Position numbers and translations under genes: made by a program. The notes beneath the pieces were generated by a model that ran no database searches, had not been told where the DNA came from, and saw only the letters and a program-made list of their open reading frames with translations. A stretch of DNA of 64,000 bases from Trypanosoma brucei (Eukaryota). Positions 3,941 through 37,327 of this stretch are shown here, in pieces (the first letter of the stretch is position 1; every line of letters starts with the position of its first letter). Location of the stretch: NCBI GenBank assembly GCA_000002445.1, contig CH464491.1:1728001-1792000 (forward strand). The letters run 5' to 3'.

Positions 3941-3998
3941 ATATATAATTTAAATATATTAAGTGTATTAAGTATATTAAATATATTAAATATATAGG
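3941..3998. repeat. AT-rich low-complexity region with degenerate TATTAA(R)T repeats
   Basis: tatatatatataatttaaatatattaagtgtattaagtatattaaatatattaaatata lies in the 2.3-kb intergenic region between SEC61 and the RRM-protein gene. Confidence 0.8.
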
Positions 3999-19844: not shown

Positions 19845-20080
19845 GACTCTCTTTTAGGAAAGTGCTTTCAATTGCAATCCAATGTGAAAAGAGGACAACA
19901 AGAAGGATTTTAAAAAGCTGAGAATAAAAGTCCCAACAAAGATTCCTTCAAGAGTATATCTCCCACCACCACACAGGTCAAACAGAGGATAAGAACATAA
20001 ACCTAAAAAGATCAAAATCAATAAAACGGGAAATGGGCAAATAGAAACGGTGGTAAGTACACAGCTTACACCACGTCCTC

Positions 20081-20653
20081 TTACCGGTTGGCCTTGGCGA
20101 CGCGCTCCACCTCATCCTTCTTTTTGATGGCATAGGAATTGGAGCTACCCTTCGACGCATTCACGATCTCGTCCGCAAGGCACTCAGGAAGTGTCTTGAG
20201 GTTGCGAAACGCCGCCTCACGCGCCCCCTTGCACATGAGGTAGATTGCCTCATTAACACGGCGCATCGGTGACACATCAACAGCCTGCCGCCGCACAACA
20301 CCACCAGCGCCAACACGTGTGGAGTCCTCACGCGGAGCTCCCTTGGAGACGGCATCAATAACCACCTGAATGGGGTTCTGATCCGTCAACAAGTGAATGA
20401 TCTCCAATGTGTGCCTCACAAGACGCACGGCCTGCAGCTTCTTACCATTGCCACGACCCTTGAACATCAGACCATTCGTGAGGCGCTCCACAATGGGGAT
20501 GCGTGCCTTGCGGAAGCGCTTCTTCTGCCAACGTCCAGCAGAGTGAGGCACATATGTTGGTGTCCGCGTGATGTAGTCGTTAAGAGCTATCTCCGTCGTC
20601 TGGAGATTCTCATATGACCACTTGTTGAAGAGCTTCGGTGCCTTTGCGCTCAT
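20081..20653 (-). CDS. RPS5: 40S ribosomal protein S5 (uS7), 190 aa
   Basis: ATG confirmed. The sequence is uS7 family throughout ([28 protein letters not shown]...[34 protein letters not shown]...). Confidence 0.95.
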
Positions 20654-20891
20654 GATGGTTTTCTAAATTTATCAAACGTGAATTTTGTAGGCAAAGGGGG
20701 AAAGGCCGTAAGTGAAGCTGAATAACAGCAGCGAGAAAAGGTGAGAAAACAGAACGAAACAAAAGGGGGAGCATTTATGTACCACCTTATCGGTTATCTG
20801 CATATAAACGATTTGTACGCAAATGCTTGAGGGTTGTTTGATGGGTAGGGGAGCTGCCTCGTAAAGGTGAGGCCCTTGAACACAAACGCAC

Positions 20892-21746: not shown

Positions 21747-24149
21747 TCCTGGTAAAGTCAGCTATTCTAAAACAGTGAAGAAACAAACAGAGACGATGAA
21801 AGCGTTCTTCTTGCTCAGGCATGTGTAAAGAGCCACTCTTGTGGTACGTAACGGTACGTGGCAGGTGCCGGACCCGTACGGTATCAACTTCAGAGGCAGC
21901 ATGTTGTAAGCAACTACCGAATTAAAAAGTCATCGACACAAGCTGGTGATTCGTCCCCCCCCTCCTATTTTAAATTTTCTCGAGCTCCGAATCGTGCGTT
22001 AAGTGTCCCGAAGGTAATAACTAGCGGCGTGGTACCCAAGTGCAAGTTGAGCTCTCAAGTTCCACGCTCATGGAACTGAACTGGGGGCAGCATATGTCCT
22101 CGTACTTCGCTGATAACAACGGCAGTAACAGTTTAAACGTCACACATCGACGTTCTCCCGAGCGGCATTGGACAAAGAACTAAGAACTCGCACGTTCTAG
22201 CACGAGTAAATGGCACGGCTGCTTGCACAACCTTTAAAAAAAACGAAATAAAGTTACCAAAACGACATTAAAGGGGAAATGCAGTAACCCCAATGATATG
22301 ATATAACGGATAGTTTTGCTCCCTTCTCATGCGCGTGCGTAGGTACAGCAACAAAACGTTGTGAGCACCGTTGCGCCCTTTACGACACATCATCAGCATG
22401 TTTCATATAATGTAACAACAGATGAAAGAAACTTCCATCAATCCAGAGAGTCACAGCGATACGTGCAGAAAAGAAATCGAACGATATTTCAATTTGCTTC
22501 CAAACGAAATATGTCTTCATGTTACGCGTGTCTTTGTGTGTGTGTGAAAGCAAATTTGGAATGCAGTCAGTGATCAAAACTATGGATATGACCCCAAACC
22601 TGTCGAGGAGCAAAACTGTAACCCATCTACGGAAACGTGCGTCAACCATAGTGCCGGCATCGAAGATAAAAAGAGGGGTATTGACGCCTCCCTTCAAGTA
22701 GCGTGTTAGTCACAAACCGTAAATACCAACAACGACTATCCATCGGGACCTCCGTTCTTACATTACAGTACATAACTACGCGTGAGCACATCGACGTATT
22801 TGGCGGTTTTCTTGTGAGCAATCAAACACGAGAACTACCGGTGACATTACTGATCAAAAACTCTCGTGACTTCCATAACCAGTCACAATGTTAACCACTG
22901 GTCATTTTTACACAACACCAGCGACCAGTAGGCGTGATAAGATTGTACACGCGAAGGTCGACTGACGGCAGCCACAGTGGCAGTTTAGCAAATTTCAGAA
23001 TTTTTTTTACATTCGAGGTTGTCCTTTGCTTCGGCGAAACTAATCGCTCCAAGACAATATTCCTCACATGACATAATTCAGCACAATAAGCGCGGTACTT
23101 AACCCCAAGAAAAGTCAAACAGGCCATACCGTCATCAGAAACGATATATCGTGGGCGTTCAACTGAAAATAAATAACTTCGACCGCAAATACATGGTTTT
23201 ACCATCAGAACTCTCGAAGAGAAAAAACTTAATGGGGACACGACCCTACAATAAACAAATTACGAAGGATATCGAGGCAAGATCACACTTATCAAACACT
23301 AAAAATACTTCCAGCCTTCCCTTCACTTAAAGACAGTAAATTCTTACATTGCGCTATACAGTCCTAGTTAGTAAGAAATTGCTCCCACAGAATTAATCCA
23401 GAACGCATCGGTCGTTAGCAAATCGTTCCGACGGTAGATAAGGTCAAACGAGTCTTCGTTCCAGTACTTAACAAGGGGAAAACTTTTACTCAAAATGCGC
23501 TTTCTATTCGCCATCATGCGGCTCTGTCATGGCGTCACCGGCCCGACATACTCTCATCAAAAAGTGTAAACGAGAGAAGGGGAAACAGATCAGAGGGGGA
23601 AAAGATAAAAGCAACGACCTACAAGCAACAAAATAATTATTACTCCCTCACCAAGCACTTACCCCTATAAAAATTGAGCAGGGACAAACAATCCCGTGTA
23701 TGTTAGACAGAACCAATAGTTAAGAAACCAAGCACAACAAAAAGAAGAGTAGAACGAACATGCCCCTCGGTACCTCCAGAGCATTCCTCCTCCCCTCAGT
23801 TCCTCGGTAGCGCACCGCTGAATTAGCAAAAATACGTCAGCATGGAAAGAAAATGAGTCCCAGGGATAACTACCCACCACACACCCACTACAATGCCGCA
23901 GACAACAAAATATTTAAGTGGTGAAGCGCCACATGCACCTAGAAAAATGTGCGCGGGATAGTATTAACACTTCCAGTCCCTCCGTTACATGACATTACAT
24001 GCTCACGAGCGCAACAAGCCTTGTAAGCCACAAAGAGTGACGCCGACAGGAATTAATCCTGTGTTGAACCCTCTTATTCAAGAAAAAGAAAAATCGAGCA
24101 GGGCTGTACGACATTAGGAAACAATATTGAAACAAAGACGCCAATGACC

Positions 24150-24150
<1 letters not shown>

Positions 24151-24192
<42 letters not shown>
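24151..24192. repeat. (AC)21 dinucleotide microsatellite
   Basis: Directly visible. An uninterrupted acac... run sits in the intergenic region 3' of the 24543..25961 gene. Confidence 0.95.
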
Positions 24193-24195
<3 letters not shown>

Positions 24196-24542
24196 TCTCA
24201 TCACTCTCTTGGATGGCCCATACGTAGGAAAGTAGCCTCCAGATATCCTTCCCCACAGCAAAGAAAAAGGAATTAGGCAAATTCGGATATGTAGGAGCCT
24301 TCGAGATAATCAGTGGCTAAACAAAAAAAACTAGGACTATCAACGACTAATAGTGCAAAAGAATGCAAAGGACAAGAGAAGGCAACGGCATATATCCACG
24401 AAACCGAGTAAGATGTATACGTATGTGACCATATACATTCTCGTTTTCATCGGAGAGGGTCAACCAAACCGGAGGGAGAAATGTGACAAAAAATATTGAA
24501 GTAAGAACAGAGAAGTGTTGTTGTGATTAGTAGAAAAGTAGA

Positions 24543-25961
24543 TTATTTACGCCGGTGAGAACGAACAGAAGGGTCACGACGGCGACTTCGTCGCCGACTA
24601 CCGCGACGTCGTTCTCTGCTCGTTCTACGGTGCTTTTCCCGACTTCTTCTCCGCACACTTCGCTCTCGGCTCCGCGAGCGAGCCCTCCGCCCACGTGGGG
24701 GTAGTGACACATGTCTCATGACGCATTCGCTCCGTGTGCACCGACCCCTCATAAAATCTCTGCAAATTTGCCGTTCCTTGGGGACAACAGAAAGTTTCCT
24801 CTCTTGCTCTCGTTTCTCGCTACAGTCCTTTTCGGTATGACCGCTCACATAACAGAAGGTGCATGTCGGCTCATGACCTCCATTTCCCGTCGCAGGTATA
24901 GCATCACTGAGCTTGTTTGTCATCAGCTTTTCGATACCTTTTGGAGGTTTCCCCGGCGGTGGTTTGGGAATGGGACCGCTTCTCTTCTTAACGCTGATAG
25001 TTACACGTGTCCCATTTGAAAGGGCGTATTCTTCGGTAGGATTAATAAAGAAGCGGACTTCGGTGGGCTCATCGGCATCAACATGTTGCACCACTTCGGT
25101 TTCGACGGGTTCAGCACCAATAAGCTTCAACAGTTCTTCGGGCGAAGCTTCTTCAGGGGATTCTTCAAAACCCTCGTTGTTTACGTTACTTTCACCAAAG
25201 GTACTTTCGTCTTGCACCTGTTTCAGTAGAACTTCCCCTCCGGGTCTCGCCCCCGCCTCAGGTGCAGATGGATTTACCGTTTCCGGACCCTGACGAAGCA
25301 TCTGCTGGTGCTGTCGTTCTTGCTGCGCTTGCTGCTGCTGAATTTCATCTTCAGCGTCTGCAACACGCCTCAACGCCTCTAGTGCCTCTTTAGCCTGCTG
25401 TTCTTCGGCTTCTCTTGTCGCTTGACGAATTAATTGTCTAGCCTCTCTTTGCGTTTGTAAACGTTGGTTCCACCTTAAGAACATAGGGTGCTCTGCTGAC
25501 AAAAAGCCGTATCTTGGTGTAGTCCGCAGCAGCTCATTGACGTCAATGCAAGAATCGCCGTTCTCGTTAAAATTCTTTTCTTCCTCATTTAATATATTTG
25601 CCAATAATTCGGACATGGCCGCAGTCGATTGGAGTTTAATCACTAACGTCAGAAGCTGGGCCGCGATATCTTCAAAATCTGCGCGACTTCCAACGAACTG
25701 GTTGTTGACGGCAATAATCATATAATGAAGTGGTATGTTAGATTTTGCCGCAGGTGAACCAACCTCAGTTGACAAGACCTCAGCATCTTCCGTTAGTTTC
25801 AGTCCCAGTGCTGACAGAGGTTCACTTGCATATTGCCTCTCAACACGCCTAAGTATTACCCCATCCCCATCAGGGGGTGCGTTATTGTCAATTGCAGCTG
25901 ATGTTGTCCTCCCTGACTTAAGTTTCTCGAGGAACGATTTCGCGGATCCAGTCCCCTGCAT
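24543..25961 (-). CDS. putative RNA-binding protein: PDZ-like N-terminal region, CCHC zinc knuckle, CCCH zinc finger and Arg/Ser-rich (RS) C-terminal tail (472 aa)
   Basis: ATG confirmed. The N-terminal PDZ-like pattern is GDGVILRRV...LGLKL...GSPAA...LHYMIIAVNNQFVGS. There is a CCHC knuckle, CTFCYVSGHTEKDC (C-x2-C-x4-H-x4-C). There is a CCCH finger, CRDFMRGRCTRSECVMRH (C-x7-C-x4-C-x3-H). The tail is SRSRERSVRRRSREKHRRTSRERRRGSRRRSRRRD. Confidence 0.6.
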   Translation of the reverse strand: MQGTGSAKSFLEKLKSGRTTSAAIDNNAPPDGDGVILRRVERQYASEPLSALGLKLTEDAEVLSTEVGSPAAKSNIPLHYMIIAVNNQFVGSRADFEDIAAQLLTLVIKLQSTAAMSELLANILNEEEKNFNENGDSCIDVNELLRTTPRYGFLSAEHPMFLRWNQRLQTQREARQLIRQATREAEEQQAKEALEALRRVADAEDEIQQQQAQQERQHQQMLRQGPETVNPSAPEAGARPGGEVLLKQVQDESTFGESNVNNEGFEESPEEASPEELLKLIGAEPVETEVVQHVDADEPTEVRFFINPTEEYALSNGTRVTISVKKRSGPIPKPPPGKPPKGIEKLMTNKLSDAIPATGNGGHEPTCTFCYVSGHTEKDCSEKREQERKLSVVPKERQICRDFMRGRCTRSECVMRHVSLPPRGRRARSRSRERSVRRRSREKHRRTSRERRRGSRRRSRRRDPSVRSHRRK

Positions 25962-28900
25962 CGCCTATATCAATACAAGAAAAATGAAGGAAAACAATCG
26001 GGACAGACTCAAAAAAAAAAAAACTACAGCTATTGACAAATGGCAACCCCGAACAGCAAGAATAACGGGCCAAATTCAAGCAGATCTGTGAAGGGATTTG
26101 CGAACTAAAGAGACAGCAGCCACAACAAATTAGAGAGGAACGACTGTTCAGGTTCTAGAGGAAACAAATAAAAAATGTGGAAGACACCATAATTTGGTTG
26201 AAAACGCACGTCAAATAGGCATCAAAACGTCTTAACTCTCAGGAAAAAAAAGAGAAAGACGGAAGCAACTTTCACTAACGGATGATTCAACTAGTACGAA
26301 GAAATATGTGCAAAAAAAATCTGCTGAAGGCGCCCCGGTGTTTTCTTTCCACCATCGCACGACACCGAGTCCGGCAGCGTACAACAAAAAAAAAATGGAA
26401 CCACACGGGCGAACCCGCAACGGCTCATTCAGGTAAGCAGTCGCCGTGAACAAGTCGCAAATACCATCACTACCATCAACCCTTTGTCTCAGCCTAACGC
26501 GTCTCCGGGAGGGGTCCGGAGAAATCGAATAGATGAACGAACCGCTGGAACGAACTCGTGCTTTTAATGCGACACATCGCCATGCATGTTTCGCATCCAC
26601 CACGCGTAACATGAGACTTCTACGCGCATACTCCGTAAACACAAAGAACGCTGATAACGGGCCCATTGAACCATCAACCTCTCTTCCCAACCCGAACCGG
26701 CGAGCATCGAGGAAGTATCAACGGCTCCACTGCCGAACGGTAGGGGTCACTCCCTTTGTTTTGTGCCCCCGGACCGATCCATCCGTATCTCAAGCCAAGA
26801 AGAAAAAACACGACAAGGGCTCTGCGTTATACAAAACTGGCATCGGAGAAAAATACATACGGCGCGCCCAAATATGAAAGCGGTCCTTTCCCCCTGACCA
26901 CCGGTCCCGGAGCCGACGCCACCAAGCCACCTGTTAGATGCCAAAGTAGCACATTCACCCCCCCCCCCGGCTTTTTTGATGGATCTTCATTGAGAGCCAC
27001 CAGTGGCAAAATGGGAGGCGCCCGGGGGACCGGCAAGTAAATAACAGCGTTCCGGCAAGACGCGGCTGGCCTCAATGCTGTATCATGCTGCCGCCCAGGC
27101 TCAACGGCGTTCCCTAGGTGAAAAGGGCAGCCAGTCCCCCAACCGCCCCGCAAAAAAACACAGAGCCACATCGAGGGACCCGATATCACGACGCACTTCA
27201 CACGGTAGCCGCATACGATCGGCGAACCACCACGGTTGATCGATTTTATGAGGACGCCGCCAACCCTCATTCCAAAAGCGAAGATGCCATCCGATCTCCC
27301 CTTCAGCAAAAGTATCTGGCGACCCGCTTCCAGCAAGACTATGCAGTTTTATCCGATGTGGGCGCATTACGGAACGGTAACCCGATAAAACATTTGCTCT
27401 TGTGATGAGAACGTCCCGTTCGTAAGAACCGGAACGGGCAACACCAACTGACAATGAAAAAGACATGCAATACGTAAAGCAGTGAGCGAGTTTTTTAAAA
27501 AAAACGGGGGGGTGAAACAGAATAGAATGGCAGTTTGCCCATGTTTCTGTGCTTCCCTCCTTGCGTCCAGTGCTCGAGGTCGGGGACCATTTTGCCCTCA
27601 AGACGCTGCAGCGCATGAAAGTGATAATATTTCCTTAGGGAGTGTGGCGCGTTTCATGACGACATTTTGTGGGACCTGGGGGTTGCAGGAAGGGGAACCA
27701 CTGGAAAACGCGGGCAACAGAATCCCATAAATGGACGACAGGGAAATTAACCGTGGGGCCGGCATCAACTGGTCCCCTGAAGCTCCGGATGTTTACCGGG
27801 ATCCCCCCTAAGGAATGAGCAAGTTGGAGACTTTTTAAGCAAAAGAAGTGGGGCCACCCTCCACGACGGCACCAGCATTCTTCACGAGGTTATACGGAAA
27901 TCGCATGGTGGTGTAAGAGGGGTGTGGGAAAACAATCAAAAATGTGCGACGCACATAAAGCAACGGATTGAAAAGCTGCAGCACATCCTAAAGCATTCGA
28001 CTCGTGAAATCAGATGCGTTCCCCAGAAGCAACGCCTCCGAGAGCGCATAAATCACGAACAAGAAACTCCCCCGGTGAGACAAGACAAAGTACAGGTTAG
28101 GAAAAGAATGGTGAAGAAGCGAGGCTGGACGGCGGTCCTGCTAGGTGGACTATGGCGATTTCCGGCCCATTCGACACCGGGTGGAGTATGCCGACCACCT
28201 TTGAAAAATACGTCGATGGTGTCCACGAATCTTGGAGGGGGAACAATCGGGTGGACCCCGCGAAGGCGCCCTCTTTTTCATTCTTTAGGTGACGGGCCAC
28301 CTCTTGTTGACATTTCCGAAACTATGAGAAGGGCGCCGCCCATGGAACTCCCTTGAGAAACTGCGAGAAGTCTTCTAGGAGGATCGCCGGTACGCCCCAC
28401 CTTTACGATACCGAGAGCGGCGTCGGAGCCAAAGGTGAGCAACTCGAAACCTCGTTGCCGCCTCCGCGATGTCGCCCACCCACCCCCTAACAAAAAAACA
28501 GCGGCGCATATCGCCTCAAGGGTCGACTTAACCGCAGGTCGCCCTCTCGAAGAGGCGATACGCAATCCACGTGCTTACGAACGACACCGGCGGAATTCGC
28601 ATACGGTTCTTGCAGCGATAACGCATCTCTGCCAGCCGATCAAAGCAAAATTGGGAGGGGGAAACATGCACACATTCCCCTGATGCTCGAATTTCTCTCC
28701 TCCCCAGCCAGGGGCGCTACCCGTCTGTTTTCACACGGTGGGAGCAATTTCTACCATAAGATCAAATTATGGCGGCAGGTGGGGGAAGCGTCCCCGTGTG
28801 ATGCAGTGGGCAGGCGTTTGCATCCACACATGGTAGCGTCGTCAAGTTTCAACGGCTCGCCCGTGAAAGGATAGAGGAGTTACTTGAGAGCTGCTTAGGG

Positions 28901-29989
28901 AAAAGGAAACCATGAGAAAGAGGGTACAGAATACGGAAAAGCCAGAGCTGGGCTCCGAAGTGCGACAGAAAGAGGTTTCACACCAACTCCGAAAGGTGAC
29001 GGGTGGGCCTTCATTGGACTAAGAATGCCGCGAGTGCTGACAAAAGTAAGACAGGCCCGAACGAATTGGTAGAAGGTAAAGAAAGCAAACCACCTTACGG
29101 CATTACAAAAGTGTATGCTTGCTCGACTTGCGGGGATGGTGTATTTGTCGCGGTTTTCGCAACGCAGAAGCGGATTGCTTCCGCCGCGCTTTGGGAGTGC
29201 CAAACGCAGCAAAGGCAACATGGAAAAGGAGAGTGGCCGTGGGTTTGGTTTCTGGGAACAGGAGAGGCAAGGGTTTTCCGTGGCGTAGGCGGGGAGAAGG
29301 AGGGGACCGAACCTGGGGGTTTGAGATTTAGTGAGCACTTTGAGGATGAAAAATGTCGTTTTACGTTGGGCTGGGGGTCACCTGACACCTCAACGGGTAG
29401 CGATGACTACACTTCCAGCCAGTGTGCACCGATACGATTTGGCACGGCGCCGTTCAGGAGAGTTACACAAATGCCCTCTTCCTCTGGCGGTGGGAAGAGA
29501 GGCCGATCCTCGGAAGGCCTTCGGGGGCGCATGTAGCGGTTCCTTCATATTTTTCTCTTGTTCCCTCCGCACGAGCTAGCAACCATGTATCTGCGTCGTT
29601 GCATCCCCCACCAACCTACGTTCACCCACCGTGGCCTCAAAGGAACGGACCGTACGGATACCAGTCAGCGGAGATCGCAGCGCTCAGCAAGCCATCAAGT
29701 CTTTAGCACATGCCACCGCGTCGAAGTGGGATAAAGAGAACTCGGTCACAAGTGTTTGCGCCACGCAAAACGCTCCCACATATTTGATCGCCTATCCTAC
29801 CATACACTTCCAGACCGCCCCTTCCGGCTTCAAGAATGCACCGCATGGGGAAAAGGCTGAATAGAGAGACGAAAGCAGTGGAAATTGCCCCTAAAGGACC
29901 GAAAACGCACCAAGCGATGCAGACTGGGCGCATAGATAATTTGAACAACACCGCGACAGAGATCAGTGTGTCACTGCCAAATTGGAAAG

Positions 29990-30790
29990 TCAAAACTTTG
30001 CCAAGTTTTCAGCAATCTCCTTATCTAACAAGAACGAAACGTTCCCCTCACAACCCCGAAGGAAGCGAGCAACGGGAGCTTTATGGGCGGTGTCCGCCAG
30101 TATGCCATCAACAACCCATTTCTTCTCTGCACCCGTCGCAAGTACGATGACATTACGCGCTTGCATAATCGTTGCTGGCGACAGCGTGACACGCCACACC
30201 TTCGGCTTCATGGTTTCGCTGGGGAATCCTACGCTGACAACCACCTTTCCGTCTGTCTCCTTTTCAGCCTGGCTTCCTGGGAAAATGGAGGCCGTGTGGC
30301 CATCAGACCCCAAACCCAAGAGTACGACATCAAAGACGGGAACTTTCGCTCCCGCTTCTCCCACACTCTTCAGGGGAAGAAGCGAGGCAAGTTGCTTTCC
30401 GTACGCCTCAGCCACCCTCATGGCGTCAGCAGATGTCGCCTCTGCCGAAGGCGTGACGGCGCTGGTGTCGAAAGGAAAAACGAGGTCGTCGGGGATGTCG
30501 TGAAGAAGGACTTCCCTCGCCATGTTGTAGTTGGAATCGGTGGAGTCGGCGGGGACCATCCGCTCATCTCCCATAAAAAAACGCAGCGCGCGCTTCTCCC
30601 TAAGCAAATTAAGGTGCTCATCATGCAGCCGCGCGTAGGTCATCTTTGGCGTGGAACCACCCGCAAGGGCGATGGACAAAGGCCATTGTTGGCTCCCTGA
30701 AGTCTCTATGATTTCCACTATCTTTCGACACCCTGCAGCAGAGAGCTCCTGAGGCGTCGCGTGAACGCTGATGGTTGGCTTGAATGACAT
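29990..30790 (-). CDS. 6PGL: 6-phosphogluconolactonase (266 aa), C-terminal -AKF
   Basis: ATG confirmed. It is a NagB/6PGL-fold enzyme with the motifs IALAGGSTP and VVLLGLGSDGHTASIFPGS. Its 266-aa length and AKF C-terminus match what I recall of the structurally characterised T. brucei 6PGL. Confidence 0.9.
   Translation of the reverse strand: MSFKPTISVHATPQELSAAGCRKIVEIIETSGSQQWPLSIALAGGSTPKMTYARLHDEHLNLLREKRALRFFMGDERMVPADSTDSNYNMAREVLLHDIPDDLVFPFDTSAVTPSAEATSADAMRVAEAYGKQLASLLPLKSVGEAGAKVPVFDVVLLGLGSDGHTASIFPGSQAEKETDGKVVVSVGFPSETMKPKVWRVTLSPATIMQARNVIVLATGAEKKWVVDGILADTAHKAPVARFLRGCEGNVSFLLDKEIAENLAKF
29993..30001 (-). other. PTS1-like C-terminal tripeptide -AKF on 6PGL
   Basis: The codons for A-K-F lie immediately 5' of the stop at 29990-29992 on the minus strand. 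This is a non-canonical PTS1-like ending (F instead of L/M). The pentose-phosphate enzymes of trypanosomes are partly glycosomal. Confidence 0.5.
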
Positions 30791-31273: not shown

Positions 31274-32476
31274 TTACTCTTCTCGGTACCCGAACCTCGA
31301 GTCACCTCCCTTTCCCATGAGTATCTTCACTGCTTCCTTCAATGGAACACGATGGCCCTGCAGTTGCGGGGCCCCCTCACCTTCTCTTTTGGTTGCATCT
31401 GACACCTGACGCGCCTCTTCGTTTTCACACTGCCGCTTCTGCTGTTCGCCCATCCTTCTTGCATTAAGCAGTTCTGCGCGCATTGCCCTCCTTGCCTCTT
31501 CATAGTCACGTTGCCTGAGCTCTTCCCGAGCAGCCCGAACAGAGGCCTCCACTTCATCCAACACTCGTAGCGCATACTGCAACTCTCTCTCTGTCGCGCC
31601 GGACTCATCACGAAAGACCAAGGCAGACTCCCCAGACTCCTCCACTAATTTACCCCCCGCATACTCCACAAGCAGCTCCAGCGCCCCTCGCTGCTGCACT
31701 ACACTTTTGTACACCACTCGGTTACGAAGTCGCAACCTACGATATTTCTCCTCCATGGGATGCAAAATCATATTCGTTAACGCGGTGCGGAGAGTTTCAA
31801 TGTTGCTCGCGGAAGTGTAAAGTCCGTCACCCGCGTCGTCTGCAGAAAACTCTTGAGCAATGTAAGAGCGCAGTTCTCCGACAGCCTTTGCCTTCTCACA
31901 CCGCTCGCGTCGCACTTCAAGTCGCAAATTTTGGCGCAACTGCACATAATTTGGCTCGTTGGCTCGTGCATCCTCTTCCCGACGACGTAGGTAACTTATA
32001 GCCTGCAGCGCCTGGTCAAGCAATTGCTGTTGAGGTGCATGTGGAAGCACAAGGCACTCGTCCCCGGGACAGTCAGTTTCATCGTCTGAGGCTACAAAAC
32101 CAAGTGAAGCCAGAAAAGTCGTAGCCCCGGGAACACAAAAGAGCTGAGACTGCAACTTGCTATTGTTGCACCGCAGTCGCCTGTACCTTGCTTCATTGGG
32201 AAACTGCCGGAGGTTCCGAACAACCGTTTCTAGTATATCGTAGGCGCACTGCCGCTGTAATCGCCCGATTACATCTTCACCGAACCCGCTGATGTCTGCC
32301 ACTTGCCTGGGGGGAGCGGTCTGCGGTGGTTGCGGACCCCTGCATTGCTCCGTTTCAATTGGTTGGCCGTGTCGCTTAATGGTGATATCCTTCGCAGCCT
32401 TAAACTCCTCCTCGGTGAGGGCGCCACTCTTGAAGAGGTCTATCAGTTGCAGGAGCTCTCCAGAGAGGGATGACAT
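31274..32476 (-). CDS. PUB (PNGase/UBA- or UBX-containing) domain protein with two PUB-like domains (401 aa from the ATG at 32476)
   Basis: The track ORF starts at 32926 with a TTG and overlaps the stop of the upstream gene. In-frame ATGs are at 32663-32665 (MFSSLHVVRPLFVILFIWASS..., hydrophobic) and 32474-32476 (MSSLSGELLQLIDLF...). The two PUB-like motifs are FPNEARYRRLRCNNSKLQSQLFCVPGATTFLASLGF and MEEKYRRLRLRNRVVYKSVVQQRGALELLVEYAGGKL. Confidence 0.6.
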   Translation of the reverse strand: MSSLSGELLQLIDLFKSGALTEEEFKAAKDITIKRHGQPIETEQCRGPQPPQTAPPRQVADISGFGEDVIGRLQRQCAYDILETVVRNLRQFPNEARYRRLRCNNSKLQSQLFCVPGATTFLASLGFVASDDETDCPGDECLVLPHAPQQQLLDQALQAISYLRRREEDARANEPNYVQLRQNLRLEVRRERCEKAKAVGELRSYIAQEFSADDAGDGLYTSASNIETLRTALTNMILHPMEEKYRRLRLRNRVVYKSVVQQRGALELLVEYAGGKLVEESGESALVFRDESGATERELQYALRVLDEVEASVRAAREELRQRDYEEARRAMRAELLNARRMGEQQKRQCENEEARQVSDATKREGEGAPQLQGHRVPLKEAVKILMGKGGDSRFGYREE

Positions 32477-32865
32477 GATAGGCAGACACACCTTCTTTCT
32501 TTTTTCCTTTTTACTACGTTGAGCTTCTTTTTCCTGACCACACACTCTCTTCACACCTCCTGTTGGGTTGTTCCAGAGCAACGTCGGAAGCCTCAGGAAG
32601 GTGCTGGAAGCCCAAATGAAAAGAATAACAAACAGGGGACGAACAACGTGTAACGAAGAAAACATTAACAGGGACGACAGTCTTGCAAGGCACAACCCTG
32701 TGGCACGGCGGCGTCTAGTGTTCCATCTTTCCCTCTCCCCTCGCTTAAAACCGCTCACGACCTCTTTATCCCCAAGCGCAGACGAAAAAGGGGGGGATCC
32801 TTTCACACGCCTCTTATCAGATTCCAACCCCTTGGCCTCTTCTCGAACCGCTGGCACTTGCCACT

Positions 32866-35800
32866 TCATCCGTTTGAGCTTACCACCTCCACCTCCTGCA
32901 CAGCCTTCAAAAGCATCCAAGAACAAAAGGTCATGGACGACTTGAAGGGAGAAACCTCACGCGAGGACGATGCCGGTTCAAATTCCGTGGTCTGCTGATG
33001 TTCTCCCCGCACACGCCTCATCTGAACCTCACTCTCCAACAGACGCATGGCCGCCTGCATGACAAGGTGTAGCCGCAGGAATGAAAACCCCCTTAACTTT
33101 AGGAGCATGACACCCATCCATTCATCCGCACTGCCGTATGTTCCATCAGGTGAGTGGTGTTCCGCCGCGTGTTCGGTGCCTTCGCCGTCTTCAGGTGCGA
33201 GTCCCGCGATGTCACACTGCTGTGGAAGCTCTACCTCCAGGCGTCTGGGAATACTTTCATCCACAGGTGCCCCGTCTACTTCCACCATTTCCTCTTCGAC
33301 CATTTTTTTGACTTCCACCTCCATGTTCTCCGTCTTCCTTCTAGCTTTCTCCTCTCGGTCATGGTTGTCGTCGCGGCTACCGCTGCTGCCCAGCACGTCT
33401 ATCTCCGCCTCGCGTGGTTGATCACGCTCCACATTTTCAACTGGCGCTTTCTTTTGGCAAGATCGACCACCGCGGTTTGCCGGACGGCGACGTCGTCTCA
33501 TGCCATAATATCTGGGCTTCTTCCTCTGCGTTGGAGTAGCGCCGGTTGTCCCTCTCTGCGGTGTTTTGGGTGGTTCTTGCAGCGCCTTATCAGCGGTAGA
33601 ACATGGCGGCGGGGCACCAGGCATTACAAGGTCCTTGTGTTTCTCGCAGAAAGAGACAACAGCACGATTGATCTTGTAAAGATTGAGCACAGTCAGCTCT
33701 TTAAGCTCGGAAGCGCGTACGCGATACCGTAGATCGAAGGCTGACACTGTGCGGAAAAACGATCTTACATTGTTAACTAACATATCAATGTCATTGTTAT
33801 ATTGCGATAAGCTAGTATACTCCTCGTTTTCAAGTTTCATCATCACATCCGAAAGACTAATCTGTCTTCCATTTGTGTGTTGTTGCCAGTGGTTGTAAAG
33901 GTCATGGGTCGGGGTCAGGTCGAGGTTCCGACTGACGAACACAGAAAACTTTTTGTTGTTTATATACTGTCCCACCCACTTTGTAAGTACGTGACGCAAC
34001 TGGCGCCTGCGAAAATCCACACGACGCCACAAGTCCACTTCATCAAGCCACGCCGCACGCACTTGTTTTGGCGATAGCGGAGGTGGTGGCGACAGATCTT
34101 CGGGAAGCTCTTGTAAATTAATGGGCGCGGATGTTTTTAGCGCAAGGTCCACCACACGGAGAAGATAACTCAAGAAGCGACGTAGGTCATCATCCGACGG
34201 CGTGCACGGCACCTCGCACACAGCCGTACGCAACTGTATACTAAGGCGATTGCCGGCAAAGAAGGTGGAGGACACATCGCGTCGAACAGTGGGTGCAATA
34301 ATGAGTGCATCCGTGTCGCGCAGGCAGTTTAGGTAGTAGCAAAGGTTATCCACATCGTTTGAGCGCCCGATGCCGCATTTGTTCCCACATCCGAAACTTG
34401 CGTCGACCTCGGGGGCGTGATCGGCCAGCCACTCCTCCAAGCCTTTCAGAATCACCAGCGAGGGGCCGCTGCAGCGCCTCACAGCCGCGATGCAACTATA
34501 AATGTGGCCTGTGTCGAAACGATTGCTGTCTCTGAGATCGTCTCCTCCCTCACCGCAGGTGAGGTTACCACTGAGTGGGCCAAGGTCGCCCGTGGTTCGA
34601 ACACCTAACAACCCCGAAGCGTCACGGTCCACCACGAGATGCGGAAGATAAAGCGTGAAAGCTCGAATCGACGGCAGTCCCTTCGTAAGAGCAATAGCTG
34701 CCTTCTGTACGGCAAACTCAGAGTCCTCACGGTCCGTTGCACAACCGACAGCTTCCGTTGTGAGAAAAAGCAGAAAGGGGTGCGCCACGTTACTTATTGG
34801 AAAACTGCTCAGCTCCCGTACTGCATCAGCGGAGTTGCTACAGTCTCTCTTCTCCTTTGCAAGGGCAGTCGAAGCACTCGGCCACCTCGCTGCGACAAAT
34901 GACAATAACTTGCATCGCGTACTGTTGAGCAGATGCTCAAGATGCTCATCAAGACCATCGCCTACAGCAGTCGTCACGCGTCTTGCGGAATTTTTCACCC
35001 GGTGCGCGGCGATAAAAAAATCTTCCCGCTGAACAATCAAAGCACCTTCGGGGATTTGTAACTTCTTGCTGGTGGTGTAGATCTGTGGCAGTGCCGTGCG
35101 CAACCGATTCAGACCTGCCTCCGTACACACCGCCTGTATCTCAGCCCCTGTCCATCCTGCGCACCGGTCGGTGAGCTCCTGCAGAATCTCCTCCCGATCA
35201 AGGCGGTCAGCGGGCAGCATAGGTTTCGTCACAATATCGAGGATATGCCGCCTGGCGGCTCCATCGGGTAGGGGAAAGTACAGTTCACGATCGAAGCGCC
35301 CGGGGCGTCGAAGTGCAGGGTCGATTGTGTCCGGCCGGTTGGTAGCGCCAATCACGACAACTCGGCCACGGTCATCGAGGCCGTCAATGAGCGCCAGCAG
35401 AGTAGCGACAAGGGCAGCTTGCGATTGCTCTGCCTTTGCGTGCCTTACGGGAACGAGGCCGTCCAACTCGTCGAAGAATATTATGCTTGGTTGCTGGCGC
35501 TTGGCCTCCTCAAACAGAAGAATTAGCTGCCGCTCTGCTTCTCCAACCCATTTGGAAAGGATATCAGCTCCCTTACGCATGAAAAATGTTATTTTTTGGT
35601 TGGCATGGAGCATACCCTCATTGGCGAGCGCTCGCGCCATGAGAGTTTTCCCCGTTCCCGGTGGGCCAACAAAGAGCACACCTCGTGGAGGGGAGAGACT
35701 CATCGCCTGCAACATTCCTGGGTACATCAGTGGTAACAGAACCATTTCACGTAACAACACAATGTGTCCAGAAAGACCTCCAACCTTCTCAAAAGTAACA

Positions 35801-36681
35801 GATGTGTCAAGATTCAGTGGTGTGATATCCCCAAGTGCATTGTTATTGCCCTCTTTTGAGAGACCCGGTTCGCGGCGGTGGGCGGCATCGTCAGCCCCAC
35901 TCAATCCCAACAAAACATCTTCTGTACGGCGCTGACGGCTTCCGCGCGATGCCCCGAACAACCCCTTCTTGTCTTCCAGTGAGGTTTCCTTTATTTCGGC
36001 GCTGAGGTAGTGATTGATGGGTTTGTTCTTGCTTACGCACACCTTAGCGTTTTTCTTCGCCCGCTGCACCTCACAGTCGCTCAGTGGTTCTTCCGAGGAT
36101 AGGTCCAAGGACGAGTGCTCGAATAATAAACCTCCAGCCTCCTCTTCGGGTGAGCCCCGACGAAGAGACTCATCTGTGATGGAAGAGTCAACGGACTCGT
36201 CGCGATCCCGTTTGCGTGTCACAACTTTACCCGGAGTACCATTACACCTGAATCTGCCATGCGGCACCTTCCGAGTGGGGGTTCCATCCGTATGCATAGC
36301 ACATCTGTCGTTGCCGTCGCTGTCATCCGATGACTCGGACGGTCCCGCCCCACTCCCATCAAGCAACTCCAGTGTGTCACTCAGTTTGGTCACCGCCCGC
36401 TTGGCCGCATCCCTCTCGGGATAGCGAGTGTTGATTTGGAGTTCCTGTACAGCAGGCTGTTTAGACCGCCGTGTCAGCGCCTCAGAGACATACAGAGAGT
36501 CATATGTTGGGGCCGCCGGTCGCGGAATACGGCAACCGCGCCCAAGAGGTTCTTCCCGTGGCGGGGTTTGGGGTGCATTGGTTATGAAGTTAGAAAATTT
36601 GTTGGCATTAGTAGTGTGTGGGCCGGCGTCACCAGTGTGGAGTTGTGCGCTTAATTTCGTTTGGGAGCGGGTCACAACCAT
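32866..36681 (-). CDS. AAA+ ATPase with C-terminal bromodomain (ATAD2/Yta7-like), 1271 aa
   Basis: ATG confirmed. The AAA features are Walker A GPPGTGKT, Walker B IIFFDELD, and a second region GATNRPDTIDPALRRPGRFDRELYF. The C-terminal bromodomain-like segment is ISLSDVMMKLENEEYTSLSQYNNDIDMLVNNVRSFF. The N-terminus is acidic and Ser-rich. Confidence 0.8.
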   Translation of the reverse strand: MVVTRSQTKLSAQLHTGDAGPHTTNANKFSNFITNAPQTPPREEPLGRGCRIPRPAAPTYDSLYVSEALTRRSKQPAVQELQINTRYPERDAAKRAVTKLSDTLELLDGSGAGPSESSDDSDGNDRCAMHTDGTPTRKVPHGRFRCNGTPGKVVTRKRDRDESVDSSITDESLRRGSPEEEAGGLLFEHSSLDLSSEEPLSDCEVQRAKKNAKVCVSKNKPINHYLSAEIKETSLEDKKGLFGASRGSRQRRTEDVLLGLSGADDAAHRREPGLSKEGNNNALGDITPLNLDTSVTFEKVGGLSGHIVLLREMVLLPLMYPGMLQAMSLSPPRGVLFVGPPGTGKTLMARALANEGMLHANQKITFFMRKGADILSKWVGEAERQLILLFEEAKRQQPSIIFFDELDGLVPVRHAKAEQSQAALVATLLALIDGLDDRGRVVVIGATNRPDTIDPALRRPGRFDRELYFPLPDGAARRHILDIVTKPMLPADRLDREEILQELTDRCAGWTGAEIQAVCTEAGLNRLRTALPQIYTTSKKLQIPEGALIVQREDFFIAAHRVKNSARRVTTAVGDGLDEHLEHLLNSTRCKLLSFVAARWPSASTALAKEKRDCSNSADAVRELSSFPISNVAHPFLLFLTTEAVGCATDREDSEFAVQKAAIALTKGLPSIRAFTLYLPHLVVDRDASGLLGVRTTGDLGPLSGNLTCGEGGDDLRDSNRFDTGHIYSCIAAVRRCSGPSLVILKGLEEWLADHAPEVDASFGCGNKCGIGRSNDVDNLCYYLNCLRDTDALIIAPTVRRDVSSTFFAGNRLSIQLRTAVCEVPCTPSDDDLRRFLSYLLRVVDLALKTSAPINLQELPEDLSPPPPLSPKQVRAAWLDEVDLWRRVDFRRRQLRHVLTKWVGQYINNKKFSVFVSRNLDLTPTHDLYNHWQQHTNGRQISLSDVMMKLENEEYTSLSQYNNDIDMLVNNVRSFFRTVSAFDLRYRVRASELKELTVLNLYKINRAVVSFCEKHKDLVMPGAPPPCSTADKALQEPPKTPQRGTTGATPTQRKKPRYYGMRRRRRPANRGGRSCQKKAPVENVERDQPREAEIDVLGSSGSRDDNHDREEKARRKTENMEVEVKKMVEEEMVEVDGAPVDESIPRRLEVELPQQCDIAGLAPEDGEGTEHAAEHHSPDGTYGSADEWMGVMLLKLRGFSFLRLHLVMQAAMRLLESEVQMRRVRGEHQQTTEFEPASSSREVSPFKSSMTFCSWMLLKAVQEVEVVSSNG

Positions 36682-37327
36682 TCCCCCCCCTCAGGCCCGT
36701 CACGTAGCCCAGAGCAGTCAGAGAAAGTGAAGACTTTGCCTCCCTCTACTACAGTGCTACAAGGAAAGTGCATGATGTACGGAAGAAAACAAACGAATAG
36801 TAAAAGGAGGAAGAAACAAAGTTATAGTGTCAGTACAGGCACCGAAAACGCTGTGAGAATGGGGGAAGTTTTGAGGGTGAAAGCGTGAAGGGAGATACCG
36901 AAAAACTAAGCGAACACTAAGGGAAAAGAGAAGTCAACTTCACCACCACAATAACACTGGTTGAAGCGACTTGCAAGCACCGTGCTTTGCATACCACAAA
37001 CTGAAAGAAAGCACGACTCACTACCACACGAATTAAGTTGTTCAGAAACTAGGGATTTCAGCGGATACACCCTTTTTCCCGATACCACTCAACTACTGTT
37101 GTTGCTGTCTGTCGCTTCGTAGTGTGATGTTATTGCACAGCGGTGCCCCTTTGGAATCGCTTTGACTCCACCGGTGGTTCCTCCCCGTTTGTTTACCTGA
37201 TATTAACACACAATTATGATAATATATAAATGTATTCATACATTTATGCGTACTACAGAAAGGGGAAACGTGCGAAATTAACTAAAGAGGTGATCATTAT
37301 TGGTGGATCCTTAACCACACGCTCCCT

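What the first reader, a model, noticed from the sequence alone, without database searches (positions are those of the whole stretch)
25962..29989. 4-kb GC-rich ORF-free gap inside an otherwise gene-dense polycistron
The interval between the stop of 6PGL (29990) and the start of the downstream zinc-finger gene (25961) is about 4.0 kb, whereas most spacers in this window are 0.24-1.5 kb. Unlike the other long spacers (for example 3166-5475), which are AT-rich and low in complexity, this one is GC-rich and looks coding-like. It carries many 60-180-codon ORF fragments on both strands in all frames, with none dominant. Possible explanations are a degenerate retroposon or pseudogene (a DIRE, RIME/ingi or SIDER-type remnant, all common in T. 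brucei), an unusually long regulatory 3' UTR for 6PGL, or a long non-coding RNA or ncRNA cluster.
Basis: partly seen in the sequence, partly recalled or inferred. Interest (0 to 1): 0.55.

Follow-up and report, generated by a model that had tools for sequence, protein, structure and literature searches.

The report
Boundary between two trypanosome transcription units
The 4-kb GC-rich, gene-free stretch downstream of the Trypanosoma brucei 6PGL gene is real, but it is an already catalogued boundary where one polycistronic transcription unit ends and the next begins, and it gives rise to two rare non-coding transcripts rather than holding a dead gene, a retroelement or a long 3' UTR.

Summary
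The window is T. brucei TREU927 chromosome 11, bases 1,728,001-1,792,000. The gap (25962-29989, 4,028 bp, GC 0.523) is the longest and most GC-rich spacer in the window.

Its "coding-like" ORF fragments match chance. It shows no codon bias and no period-3 signal. It has no Pfam, protein, Rfam, tRNA or repeat match. Between T. brucei subspecies it diverges like another non-coding spacer.

Published data explain it (Kolev et al. 2010, PMC2936537):
- **Table S14:** one Pol II unit ends at Tb11.02.4200 (inferred to be 6PGL). The next unit, typed "Internal", starts at Tb11.02.4190, the zinc-finger gene.
- **Table S7:** two low-abundance, trans-spliced, polyadenylated novel transcripts lie inside the gap. 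Tb11.NT.80 maps to window 29856-29021 and Tb11.NT.79 to 27493-26077.
- **3' UTR:** the NT.80 splice acceptor lies 133 nt after the 6PGL stop, so the 6PGL 3' UTR is short.

Synteny shows the site is a lineage-specific breakpoint. T. cruzi has PUB then ZnF about 400 bp apart, with no 6PGL. In T. vivax, T. theileri and T. rangeli, 6PGL lies elsewhere.

Verdict: the feature is real, ordinary and already known. The retroposon, pseudogene and long-UTR readings are not supported. The lncRNA reading is partly right.

The parts
29990..30790 (-). 6-phosphogluconolactonase CDS (Tb927.11.6330). It is the gene immediately upstream of the gap and, by inference, the last annotated ORF (Tb11.02.4200) of the upstream Pol II unit.
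   Evidence: Pfam PF01182 at E=1.7e-57. Exact match to EAN79595/XP_828707. Kolev Table S14 row Tb11.02.4485 -> Tb11.02.4200. The old ID is inferred from gene order.
29857..29989 (-). The 133 nt between the 6PGL stop and the NT.80 splice acceptor. It holds the short 6PGL 3' UTR, a polypyrimidine tract (ctttcgtctctctattc) and the AG at 29858-29857.
   Evidence: Sequence context. The 5' end of Tb11.NT.80 comes from Kolev Table S7. The 6PGL poly(A) site itself is not in the held tables, so the UTR length is inferred.
29021..29856 (-). Tb11.NT.80, a published novel trans-spliced and polyadenylated transcript. It is 835 nt at 0.67 RNA per cell, and its longest ATG ORF is 52 aa.
   Evidence: Kolev Table S7 gives chr11 1757856-1757021, minus an offset of 1,728,000. 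Fold z-score is +1.57.
27494..29020 (.). A 1.5-kb zone (GC 0.536) with no catalogued processed transcript. It is the candidate zone for Pol II termination and re-initiation. It contains a polypyrimidine tract at 28941-28897 followed by AG at 28895.
   Evidence: It is the interval between the two Table S7 transcripts. The functional assignment is inferred from Table S14 and from Kolev's description of SL+/poly(A)- RNAs at unit ends.
26077..27493 (-). Tb11.NT.79, a published novel transcript of 1,416 nt at 0.28 RNA per cell. Its sense strand is G+T-rich (0.58-0.62).
   Evidence: Kolev Table S7 gives 1755493-1754077. Its 147-aa and 144-aa ATG ORFs are frameshifted in T. b. gambiense or T. b. equiperdum. 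Fold z-score is +0.77.
26958..26968 (-). A run of 11 G on the sense strand, the only G run of at least 7 in the gap.
   Evidence: Long G and T homopolymers are a stated feature of the GT-rich promoter elements of Wedel et al. 2017. A single run is not diagnostic.
25962..26076 (-). Splice-acceptor region of the zinc-finger gene. It holds a T13-containing polypyrimidine tract (26023-25977) and the AG at 25966-25965. The NT.79 poly(A) site lies about 55 nt upstream of the tract.
   Evidence: The listed mRNA length of 1482 nt for Tb927.11.6320 equals 3 + 1419 + 60. The choice of acceptor is inferred.
24543..25961 (-). CCCH zinc-finger / MRB1-associated protein CDS (Tb927.11.6320 = Tb11.02.4190). 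It is the first annotated ORF of the downstream Pol II unit.
   Evidence: Kolev Table S14 row Tb11.02.4190 -> Tb11.02.3740, minus strand, Internal. The poly(A) site lies 60 nt after the stop.

Best explanation
The gap is a head-to-tail (non-divergent, "internal") boundary between two RNA polymerase II polycistronic transcription units on T. brucei chromosome 11.

The upstream unit runs ... AAA ATPase -> PUB -> 6PGL. 6PGL mRNA gets a short 3' UTR, because a splice acceptor 133 nt past its stop starts a spacer transcript, Tb11.NT.80. Trans-splicing there directs polyadenylation of 6PGL.

Pol II then runs out in the following ~1.5 kb. A dispersed start region re-initiates on the same strand. Its first processed products are Tb11.NT.79 and then the zinc-finger mRNA.

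The two transcripts are low-abundance, non-conserved and non-coding. They are most likely by-products of the coupled splicing and polyadenylation signals in the boundary.

Shown by published experiment: both transcripts, their ends, and the assignment of the two genes to different units with an "Internal" start. Shown here: the DNA is non-coding, unique in the window, unconstrained and lineage-specific. Inferred: the exact place of termination and initiation, the chromatin marks at this site, and the by-product status of the transcripts.
For: The window offset (chr11 position minus 1,728,000) is fixed by four poly(A) sites in Kolev Table S13. It is confirmed by the 5' ends of NT.80, NT.78 and NT.77, which each fall exactly after an AG that follows a polypyrimidine tract found independently.

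[quoted passage not shown] It lists Tb11.02.4485 -> Tb11.02.4200 and Tb11.02.4190 -> Tb11.02.3740, both on the minus strand and both "Internal". Kolev's text says these starts rest on 5'-triphosphate RNA enrichment at sites marked by variant and modified histones.

Table S7 lists Tb11.NT.79 and Tb11.NT.80 inside the gap.

The DNA is non-coding by every test.

Divergence between subspecies is 8.7-9.6 substitutions per kb, with indels. Another spacer gives 8.6-8.9 per kb and coding sequences give 0-5.8 per kb.

The site is a synteny breakpoint. T. cruzi has PUB -> ZnF about 400 bp apart without 6PGL. 6PGL follows a Sedlin gene elsewhere in T. vivax, T. theileri and T. rangeli. T. congolense shares PUB -> 6PGL followed by a GC-rich tail of at least 2.5 kb without a called gene or Pfam match.
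Against: The sequence does not mark the gap as a start region by itself. Six-mers from the synthetic GT-rich promoter of Wedel et al. cover 0.116 of the sense strand, no more than other spacers in the window (0.073-0.175). There is no canonical G-quadruplex motif.

I found no second, independent data set listing this start region. The histone, base J and nascent-RNA tracks could not be consulted.

The identity Tb11.02.4200 = 6PGL is inferred from gene order. Tb11.02.4210 is the AAA gene, so either PUB or 6PGL carries an intermediate ID.

The 5' end of NT.79 follows a polypyrimidine tract but not an AG.

"Internal" start sites need not involve complete termination of the upstream unit.
Confidence: 0.8

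Rival explanations
1. It is an ordinary long spacer within a single, uninterrupted polycistron. It happens to carry two spacer lncRNAs. The "Internal" start call in the 2010 table would be a false positive, or only a minor boost to read-through transcription.
For: GT-rich k-mer content and G-quadruplex motifs do not distinguish the gap from other spacers. The neighbouring 2.8-kb spacer also carries two novel transcripts, NT.77 and NT.78, without being a boundary. Only one published source was found.
Against: Table S14 explicitly splits the units here. According to the authors, those calls rest on 5'-triphosphate reads that coincide with the histone-marked sites. The gap is the longest and most GC-rich spacer. 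It also coincides with an evolutionary breakpoint.
Confidence: 0.12
2. It is the decayed remnant of a retroposon (ingi/RIME/DIRE/SIDER), or of a gene that moved together with 6PGL or formerly lay between PUB and ZnF.
For: The GC content equals that of coding sequence (0.523 against 0.531). 6PGL was relocated here in the ancestor of T. brucei and T. congolense. Leptomonas has a 670-aa gene between PUB and ZnF. One 900-nt window reaches a period-3 score of 3.5, with the null 99th percentile at 3.37.
Against: There is no Pfam domain at E<=1 in any frame and no protein homologue for any fragment >=50 aa. There is no similarity to the Leptomonas gene or to genes beside the ancestral 6PGL locus. There is no Pr77-like signature, although the probe works in T. 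cruzi. There is no copy elsewhere in the window. The phase-by-base chi-square test gives p=0.23-0.81, against 1e-8 for a real CDS. The single period-3 window does not survive correction for 11 windows.
Confidence: 0.04
3. It is a long, regulatory 3' UTR of 6PGL of about 3.7-3.9 kb, at least for a substantial mRNA isoform.
For: 6PGL has no entry in the held part of Kolev's poly(A)-site table. 6PGL mRNA is modestly regulated during development. 3' UTRs of up to about 6 kb exist in T. brucei.
Against: A mapped splice acceptor lies 133 nt after the stop. Two separately trans-spliced and polyadenylated RNAs occupy 2.25 kb of the gap. The units are split here.
Confidence: 0.03
4. One of the transcripts encodes a small protein or is a structured functional RNA.
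For: NT.79 has ATG ORFs of 147, 144 and 121 aa, and NT.80 has ORFs of 52 and 47 aa. The 52-aa and 47-aa ORFs are identical in the three subspecies.
Against: The 147-aa and 144-aa ORFs are frameshifted in sister subspecies. The 121-aa ORF has 2 non-synonymous and 0 synonymous changes. There is no codon bias and no homologue. The transcripts do not appear in the held text of Kolev's tables of conserved or mass-spectrometry-supported ORFs. There is no Rfam match. Folding is no more stable than shuffles. Nothing aligns with the T. congolense tail.
Confidence: 0.03

Closest known systems
Non-divergent (internal, head-to-tail) Pol II transcription start regions of T. brucei (Siegel et al. 2009; Kolev et al. 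2010; Wedel et al. 2017, 57 ndTSRs)
   Same: Genes lie on the same strand on both sides, with no tRNA or snRNA gene. The site is listed as an "Internal" unit start in Kolev Table S14. It is a broad gene-free region with low-abundance spacer transcripts, and the sense strand is G+T-rich next to the first gene.
   Different: Nothing differs in kind. The GT-rich k-mer content is not above ordinary spacers in this window. The chromatin marks at this particular site were not checked here.
T. brucei intergenic lncRNAs (Kolev "novel transcripts"; Guegan et al. 2022, e.g. grumpy)
   Same: They are trans-spliced, polyadenylated, sense-strand, low-abundance and without conserved ORFs. They lie between protein-coding genes.
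   Different: No function, snoRNA host role or developmental regulation is known for NT.79 or NT.80. Grumpy lies upstream of a regulator it controls, and no such link is shown here.
Trypanosomatid retroposon remnants (ingi/RIME, DIRE, SIDER) in spacers and UTRs
   Same: They also occupy non-coding DNA of kilobase size in spacers, often at synteny breaks.
   Different: No reverse transcriptase or endonuclease remnant, no 5' signature, no repeat copy and no protein similarity were found. A real signature hit was seen only in the T. cruzi AAA-PUB spacer.
Synteny breakpoints at transcription-unit boundaries in trypanosomatid genomes (established comparative genomics of T. brucei, T. cruzi and L. 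major; from my own knowledge)
   Same: The gene content between PUB and ZnF differs among T. brucei/T. congolense, T. cruzi, T. vivax and Leptomonas. The breakpoint coincides with a unit boundary in T. brucei.
   Different: Here the inserted material is a single housekeeping gene plus unique GC-rich DNA. It is not a multigene family, retroelement or structural RNA gene.

Membership tests
T. brucei non-divergent (internal) Pol II transcription start region / unit boundary | Experimentally mapped start of a transcription unit (5'-triphosphate RNA enrichment; listed unit boundaries) | tested here: met
   This was looked up, not recomputed. Kolev 2010 Table S14 lists a unit that starts at Tb11.02.4190 (ZnF), typed "Internal", and a preceding unit that ends at Tb11.02.4200. 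The method is described.
T. brucei non-divergent (internal) Pol II transcription start region / unit boundary | Flanking genes on the same strand, with no tRNA, snRNA or rRNA gene at the site | tested here: met
   All 20 genes in the window that I used as a reference set are on the minus strand. ARAGORN found 0 tRNAs. Rfam gave 0 matches at gathering threshold, and 0 at E<=1 in the gap.
T. brucei non-divergent (internal) Pol II transcription start region / unit boundary | Chromatin signature: H2A.Z/H2B.V, H4K10ac and BDF3 at the start; H3.V/H4.V and base J at the upstream end | not testable with these tools
   No ChIP-seq tracks are available. Two supplements searched for coordinates gave nothing.
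T. brucei non-divergent (internal) Pol II transcription start region / unit boundary | GT-rich elements and G/T homopolymers enriched on the coding strand (Wedel et al. 2017) | tested here: inconclusive
   Sense-strand G+T is 0.58-0.62 over 26000-27500, and there is one G11 run. However, GT_416-derived 6-mers cover 0.116 of the gap against 0.073-0.175 in other spacers.
ingi/RIME/DIRE/SIDER retroposon remnant | Similarity to retroposon proteins (reverse transcriptase, endonuclease, ORF1) in some frame | tested here: not met
   Six-frame Pfam scan found nothing at E<=1. The 54 fragments >=50 aa found nothing at E<=0.001 among 5.8e9 proteins.
ingi/RIME/DIRE/SIDER retroposon remnant | Conserved 5' signature of about 77-79 nt (Pr77-like) | tested here: not met
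   The probe sequence was recalled from memory, so this is only a lead. It had no match beyond 9-14 nt chance hits in the window. It hit T. cruzi L002:7947-7998 at 87% over 53 nt, E=1.8e-6, which serves as a positive control.
ingi/RIME/DIRE/SIDER retroposon remnant | Multiple dispersed copies in the genome | not testable with these tools
   Only the 64-kb window could be searched, and it holds no second copy. A whole-genome BLASTN is not available.
Long 3' UTR of the upstream gene | No trans-splice acceptor or separate processed RNA between the stop codon and the distal poly(A) site | tested here: not met
   The 5' end of Tb11.NT.80 is at window 29856, directly after a polypyrimidine tract and AG, 133 nt past the stop. 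A second transcript, NT.79, follows.
Intergenic lncRNA of T. brucei | Trans-spliced and polyadenylated transcript with no conserved or constrained ORF | tested here: met
   Table S7 lists NT.79 and NT.80, and the text states that the novel transcripts are trans-spliced and polyadenylated. Their ORFs are frameshifted or unconstrained and have no homologues.
snoRNA / structured ncRNA cluster | Match to a known RNA family, tandem repetition, conservation, or unusual fold stability | tested here: not met
   Rfam gave 0 matches. Tandem Repeats Finder gave 0. nhmmer and blastn found no conservation with T. congolense. Fold z-scores are +1.57 and +0.77.
Pseudogene (decayed coding sequence) | Residual codon bias, period-3 signal or protein similarity | tested here: not met
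   The codon log-likelihood is at most 0.07 in all frames, against 0.12-0.34 in flanking genes. The phase-by-base chi-square gives p=0.46 for the whole gap. There is no homologue.

The most novel reading that the evidence does not exclude
The internal start region is a lineage-specific invention tied to a rearrangement. In the common ancestor of T. brucei and T. congolense, 6PGL moved from the end of its ancestral gene cluster (after the Sedlin gene, next to a strand switch in T. vivax) into the PUB-ZnF spacer. It may have moved together with its downstream unit-terminal DNA. This split a polycistron that is continuous and compact in T. cruzi, so that a new dispersed Pol II start region had to arise from unique GC-rich non-genic DNA upstream of the zinc-finger gene. 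If so, the locus would be a datable case of the birth of a trypanosome Pol II promoter region and terminator. NT.79 and NT.80 would be its young transcripts.
Probability: 0.15. Interest if true: 0.5.

Novelty: already known. Interest (0 to 1): 0.2.

Why it matters
It matters little beyond correct annotation. Three points follow.

- The locus should be read as a Pol II unit boundary with two spacer lncRNAs, not as a candidate pseudogene, retroelement or giant UTR.
- Long, unusually GC-rich, ORF-free, single-copy spacers between same-strand genes may be a usable sequence-only hint for internal unit boundaries in T. brucei. The published GT-rich k-mer signature did not pick this one out.
- The boundary coincides with a breakpoint at which 6PGL was relocated in the T. 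brucei/T. congolense lineage. This gives a small, testable example for asking how such start regions arise.

Tried and rejected
- **Coding gene or frameshifted gene:** rejected. Evidence comes from the codon-usage scan, the shuffle test of ORF lengths, period-3 and phase tests, six-frame Pfam, and a search of concatenated fragments against 5.8e9 proteins.
- **Retroposon:** rejected on the same evidence, plus the Pr77 probe and the absence of a repeat in the window.
- **Known RNA families, tRNA and tandem repeats:** none found.
- **Structured RNA:** fold z-scores are positive.
- **Conservation with T. congolense, T. vivax, T. theileri, T. rangeli and T. cruzi:** blastn, nhmmer and tblastn found nothing. 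The PUB-6PGL control spacer also fails to align, so this only excludes strongly conserved elements.
- **Remnant of the Leptomonas 670-aa gene between PUB and ZnF:** no similarity.
- **Sequence signatures of a start region:** GT-rich 6-mers, G-quadruplex motifs and CpG observed/expected ratio do not set the gap apart.
- **Literature look-ups that gave nothing:** supplements of Guegan 2022 are not held. The nanopore lncRNA paper, Staneva 2021 and Wedel 2017 coordinates gave no hit. A text search for the old 6PGL ID also gave nothing.
Full report
**Identity of the window**

The three proteins around the finding match Trypanosoma brucei brucei TREU927 chromosome 11 entries exactly:
- 6-phosphogluconolactonase, EAN79595/XP_828707.
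- A 472-aa C3H1 zinc-finger "MRB1-associated protein", EAN79594.
- A conserved hypothetical protein, EAN79593.

The accession numbers of the zinc-finger gene and 6PGL are consecutive in TREU927, in T. b. gambiense and in T. equiperdum. No protein-coding gene is therefore annotated between them. The literature gives 6PGL = Tb927.11.6330, PPDK = Tb927.11.6280 and the zinc-finger gene = Tb927.11.6320 = Tb11.02.4190.

Window position equals chromosome position minus 1,728,000. This follows from four poly(A) sites in Kolev et al. 2010, Table S13. The sites for PPDK, zf-HIT, S5 and ZnF fit the window stop codons minus 3' UTRs of 958, 37, 90 and 60 nt.

**Check of the observation**

The ORFs are as described: 6PGL at 29990-30790 and the zinc-finger gene at 24543-25961, both on the minus strand. 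The gap is 4,028 bp with GC 0.523. It is the longest and most GC-rich of 16 spacers, whose GC otherwise ranges from 0.38 to 0.51.

The gap carries 38 stop-free stretches of at least 60 codons, the longest being 191. This is exactly what its composition predicts. Dinucleotide shuffles give a longest stretch of 183 +/- 42 codons and 34.4 +/- 3.7 stretches of at least 60 codons. The "coding-like look" is therefore a by-product of 52% GC.

**Is anything encoded?**

- A codon-usage log-likelihood trained on the window's genes stays at or below 0.07 in all six frames across the gap. It is 0.12-0.34 in the flanking genes.
- A phase-by-base chi-square test gives p = 0.46 for the gap, against 1e-8 for the zinc-finger CDS. 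One period-3 spectral window at 3.5 does not survive correction for 11 windows.
- The six-frame translation has no Pfam match at E<=1.
- All 54 stop-free fragments of at least 50 aa, concatenated, found nothing at E<=0.001 among 5.8 billion proteins.
- Rfam gives nothing at gathering threshold in the window, nor at E<=1 in the gap. There are no tRNAs and no tandem repeats.
- Nothing in the gap recurs elsewhere in the window at the DNA or translated level.
It does hit the T. cruzi AAA-PUB spacer (L002:7947-7998, 87% over 53 nt), so the probe works.

**Constraint**

I aligned the locus with T. b. gambiense and T. b. equiperdum, which keep the gap at 4,032 and 4,034 bp. The gap differs by 8.7-9.6 substitutions per kb plus 12-16 indel columns. 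The ZnF-downstream spacer gives 8.6-8.9 per kb, and coding sequences give 0-5.8 per kb with essentially no indels.

blastn and nhmmer find no similarity between the gap and the 2.5 kb that follows 6PGL in T. congolense, or any other fetched locus. The PUB-6PGL control spacer also fails to align, so this excludes only strongly conserved elements.

**What the published transcriptome says**

Kolev et al. 2010 (PMC2936537) mapped spliced-leader sites, poly(A) sites and 5'-triphosphate ends in procyclic cells.

Their Table S14 is titled "Putative Pol II transcription units". [quoted passage not shown] It contains two consecutive rows: "Tb11.02.4190 -> Tb11.02.3740, -, Internal" and "Tb11.02.4485 -> Tb11.02.4200, -, Internal". 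The zinc-finger gene is thus the first ORF of one unit. The gene just upstream of it closes the previous unit.

The text explains how the internal starts were called. They come from enrichment of sense and antisense 5'-triphosphate reads at sites already marked by variant and modified histones.

Their Table S7 lists novel transcripts, stated to be trans-spliced and polyadenylated. Two lie in the gap:
- Tb11.NT.80: 1757856-1757021, window 29856-29021, 835 nt, 0.67 RNA per cell.
- Tb11.NT.79: 1755493-1754077, window 27493-26077, 1,416 nt, 0.28 RNA per cell.

The median for annotated genes is about 3 mRNAs per cell.

**Fit to the sequence**

Before seeing those coordinates I had listed polypyrimidine tracts on the sense strand.
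- The 5' end of NT.80 falls on the base after "...ctttcgtctctctattcAG".
- The 5' ends of NT.78 and NT.77, in the next spacer, fall exactly after the AGs predicted at 24348 and 23554.
- The 3' end of NT.80 lies about 80 nt upstream of the next tract (28941-28897, AG at 28895).
- The 3' end of NT.79 lies about 55 nt upstream of the T13-containing tract that precedes the AG at 25966-25965 and the ZnF start codon.

This is the known coupling of polyadenylation to downstream trans-splicing.

Two things follow. The 6PGL 3' UTR must fit into the 133 nt between its stop and the NT.80 acceptor, which is an inference because its poly(A) site is not in the held tables. The ZnF mRNA is about 3 + 1419 + 60 nt, which agrees with the length of 1482 listed by Antwi et al. 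2016.

The 1.5 kb between the two transcripts (29020-27494) has no catalogued processed RNA. It is the likeliest zone of termination and re-initiation. Kolev et al. describe very rare SL-containing, non-polyadenylated RNAs at unit ends, and the acceptor at 28895 would produce such an RNA. This placement is inferred.

**Are the two transcripts more than by-products?**

- Their longest ATG ORFs are 147, 144 and 121 aa in NT.79, and 52 and 47 aa in NT.80.
- The 147-aa and 144-aa ORFs are frameshifted by 2-nt indels in T. b. equiperdum and/or T. b. gambiense. The 121-aa ORF has two non-synonymous and no synonymous changes.
- Neither transcript appears in the held text of Kolev's tables of conserved or mass-spectrometry-supported ORFs.
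- Both fold less stably than shuffled controls, with z = +1.57 and +0.77.

I therefore regard them as low-level non-coding spacer transcripts.

**Sequence signatures of a start region**

Wedel et al. 2017 report GT-rich elements and G/T homopolymers on the coding strand of start regions, and 57 non-divergent start regions genome-wide.

The promoter-proximal part of the gap (26000-27500) is G+T-rich on the sense strand, at 0.58-0.62 with G up to 0.33, and contains a G11 run. However, 6-mers from their synthetic GT_416 promoter cover 0.116 of the gap's sense strand. That is no more than other spacers in the window, at 0.073-0.175. No canonical G-quadruplex motif is present, and CpG content is unremarkable.

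The boundary assignment therefore rests on the published experiment, not on my sequence analysis. I found no second data set that lists it.

**Evolution of the locus**

| Species | Arrangement |
|---|---|
| T. cruzi | AAA -> PUB -> ZnF, only about 400 bp between PUB and ZnF, no 6PGL |
| T. vivax, T. theileri, T. rangeli | 6PGL lies elsewhere, after L17 - eIF1A - ASF1 - Sedlin (T. theileri held locus shows only Sedlin upstream); in T. vivax it is next to a convergent strand switch |
| T. congolense | PUB -> 6PGL, as in T. brucei, followed by at least 2.5 kb of GC 0.54 DNA without a called gene or Pfam match |
| T. vivax (ZnF locus) | An LRR gene and a 225-aa ORF, then 8 kb of GC-rich DNA upstream of ZnF; AAA and PUB absent |
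| Leptomonas pyrrhocoris | A 670-aa gene between PUB and ZnF, with no similarity to the gap |
| T. theileri | Long spacers at both loci, but they contain runs of N |

The interval upstream of the zinc-finger gene is thus a recurrent breakpoint. 6PGL and the gap are a derived feature of the T. brucei/T. congolense lineage. Synteny breaks at transcription-unit boundaries are a known pattern in trypanosomatids; I state this from my own knowledge. Whether the start region arose with the rearrangement is an open possibility, which I rate at about 15%.

**Caveats**

Tb11.02.4210 is the AAA ATPase (its poly(A) site maps 135 nt after the AAA stop). Two genes, 6PGL and PUB, therefore lie between Tb11.02.4190 and Tb11.02.4210, and one of them has an intermediate ID. 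I infer from gene order that 6PGL = Tb11.02.4200. Either way, the unit that starts at the zinc-finger gene starts downstream of 6PGL.

The 5' end of NT.79 follows a polypyrimidine tract but not an AG. "Internal" starts do not prove complete termination upstream.

**Verdict**

The feature is a catalogued internal Pol II unit boundary with two spacer lncRNAs. The retroposon, pseudogene and long-UTR readings are not supported. Novelty: already known. Interest: low.

Noticed in passing
window 20081-20653 (and 19845-20891): The window has one copy of the ribosomal protein S5 gene (Pfam Ribosomal_S7, 190 aa). T. b. gambiense, T. b. equiperdum, T. vivax, T. cruzi and T. theileri all have two tandem copies. 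The alignment shows a 784-bp indel. This could be a collapsed tandem duplicate in the TREU927 assembly or a real copy-number difference.
   Followed up: partly
window 21747-24542: The 2.8-kb spacer downstream of the zinc-finger gene also carries two published novel transcripts: Tb11.NT.78 (24346-23676) and Tb11.NT.77 (23552-21891). Their 5' ends sit exactly after polypyrimidine tract + AG. T. b. gambiense annotates a 104-aa ORF here (L009:12739-13053), which TREU927 does not.
   Followed up: partly
This suggests a retroposon remnant in that T. cruzi spacer. The T. brucei window has none.
   Followed up: no
L001:1965-10000 (T. vivax, upstream of the ZnF orthologue): This is 8 kb of GC-rich DNA (up to 0.65 in 500-nt windows). 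It has overlapping long stop-free stretches on both strands (338, 269 and 252 aa) that have no Pfam match. The AAA and PUB genes found here in the other species are missing within 10 kb.
   Followed up: partly
L005, L006, L007 versus window 29990-30790: 6PGL sits directly after a Sedlin_N gene in T. vivax, T. theileri and T. rangeli, with L17 - eIF1A - ASF1 further upstream in T. vivax and T. rangeli. In T. brucei and T. congolense it sits after the PUB gene. A housekeeping gene was therefore relocated in the T. brucei/T. congolense ancestor.
   Followed up: partly
window 31274-32926: The mechanical 550-aa (TTG) PUB ORF overlaps the 3' end of the AAA gene. Annotations use 463 aa (TREU927, T. 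b. gambiense) or 400 aa (T. b. equiperdum, T. equiperdum). The AAA poly(A) site (window 32731) lies upstream of the 463-aa start (32665), so the 550-aa reading is not real.
   Followed up: partly
window 36682-38707: This "spacer" shows a CDS-like period-3 signal (about 6) around 36982-38181. Kolev's poly(A) site for Tb11.02.4220 implies a stop at about 37328. A small gene of under 200 aa lies here, probably ribosomal protein L24e as in T. cruzi.
   Followed up: no
L010:5203-7215 (Leptomonas pyrrhocoris): A 670-aa gene with no Pfam domain lies between PUB and the ZnF orthologue. tblastn found no counterpart in any of the trypanosome loci fetched.
   Followed up: partly
window 32866-36681: The AAA ATPase (Tb11.02.4210) also gives a weak bromodomain match (PF00439, E=5.8e-4, below the cut-off). 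This would make it an ATAD2-like chromatin protein encoded two genes upstream of the unit boundary.
   Followed up: no
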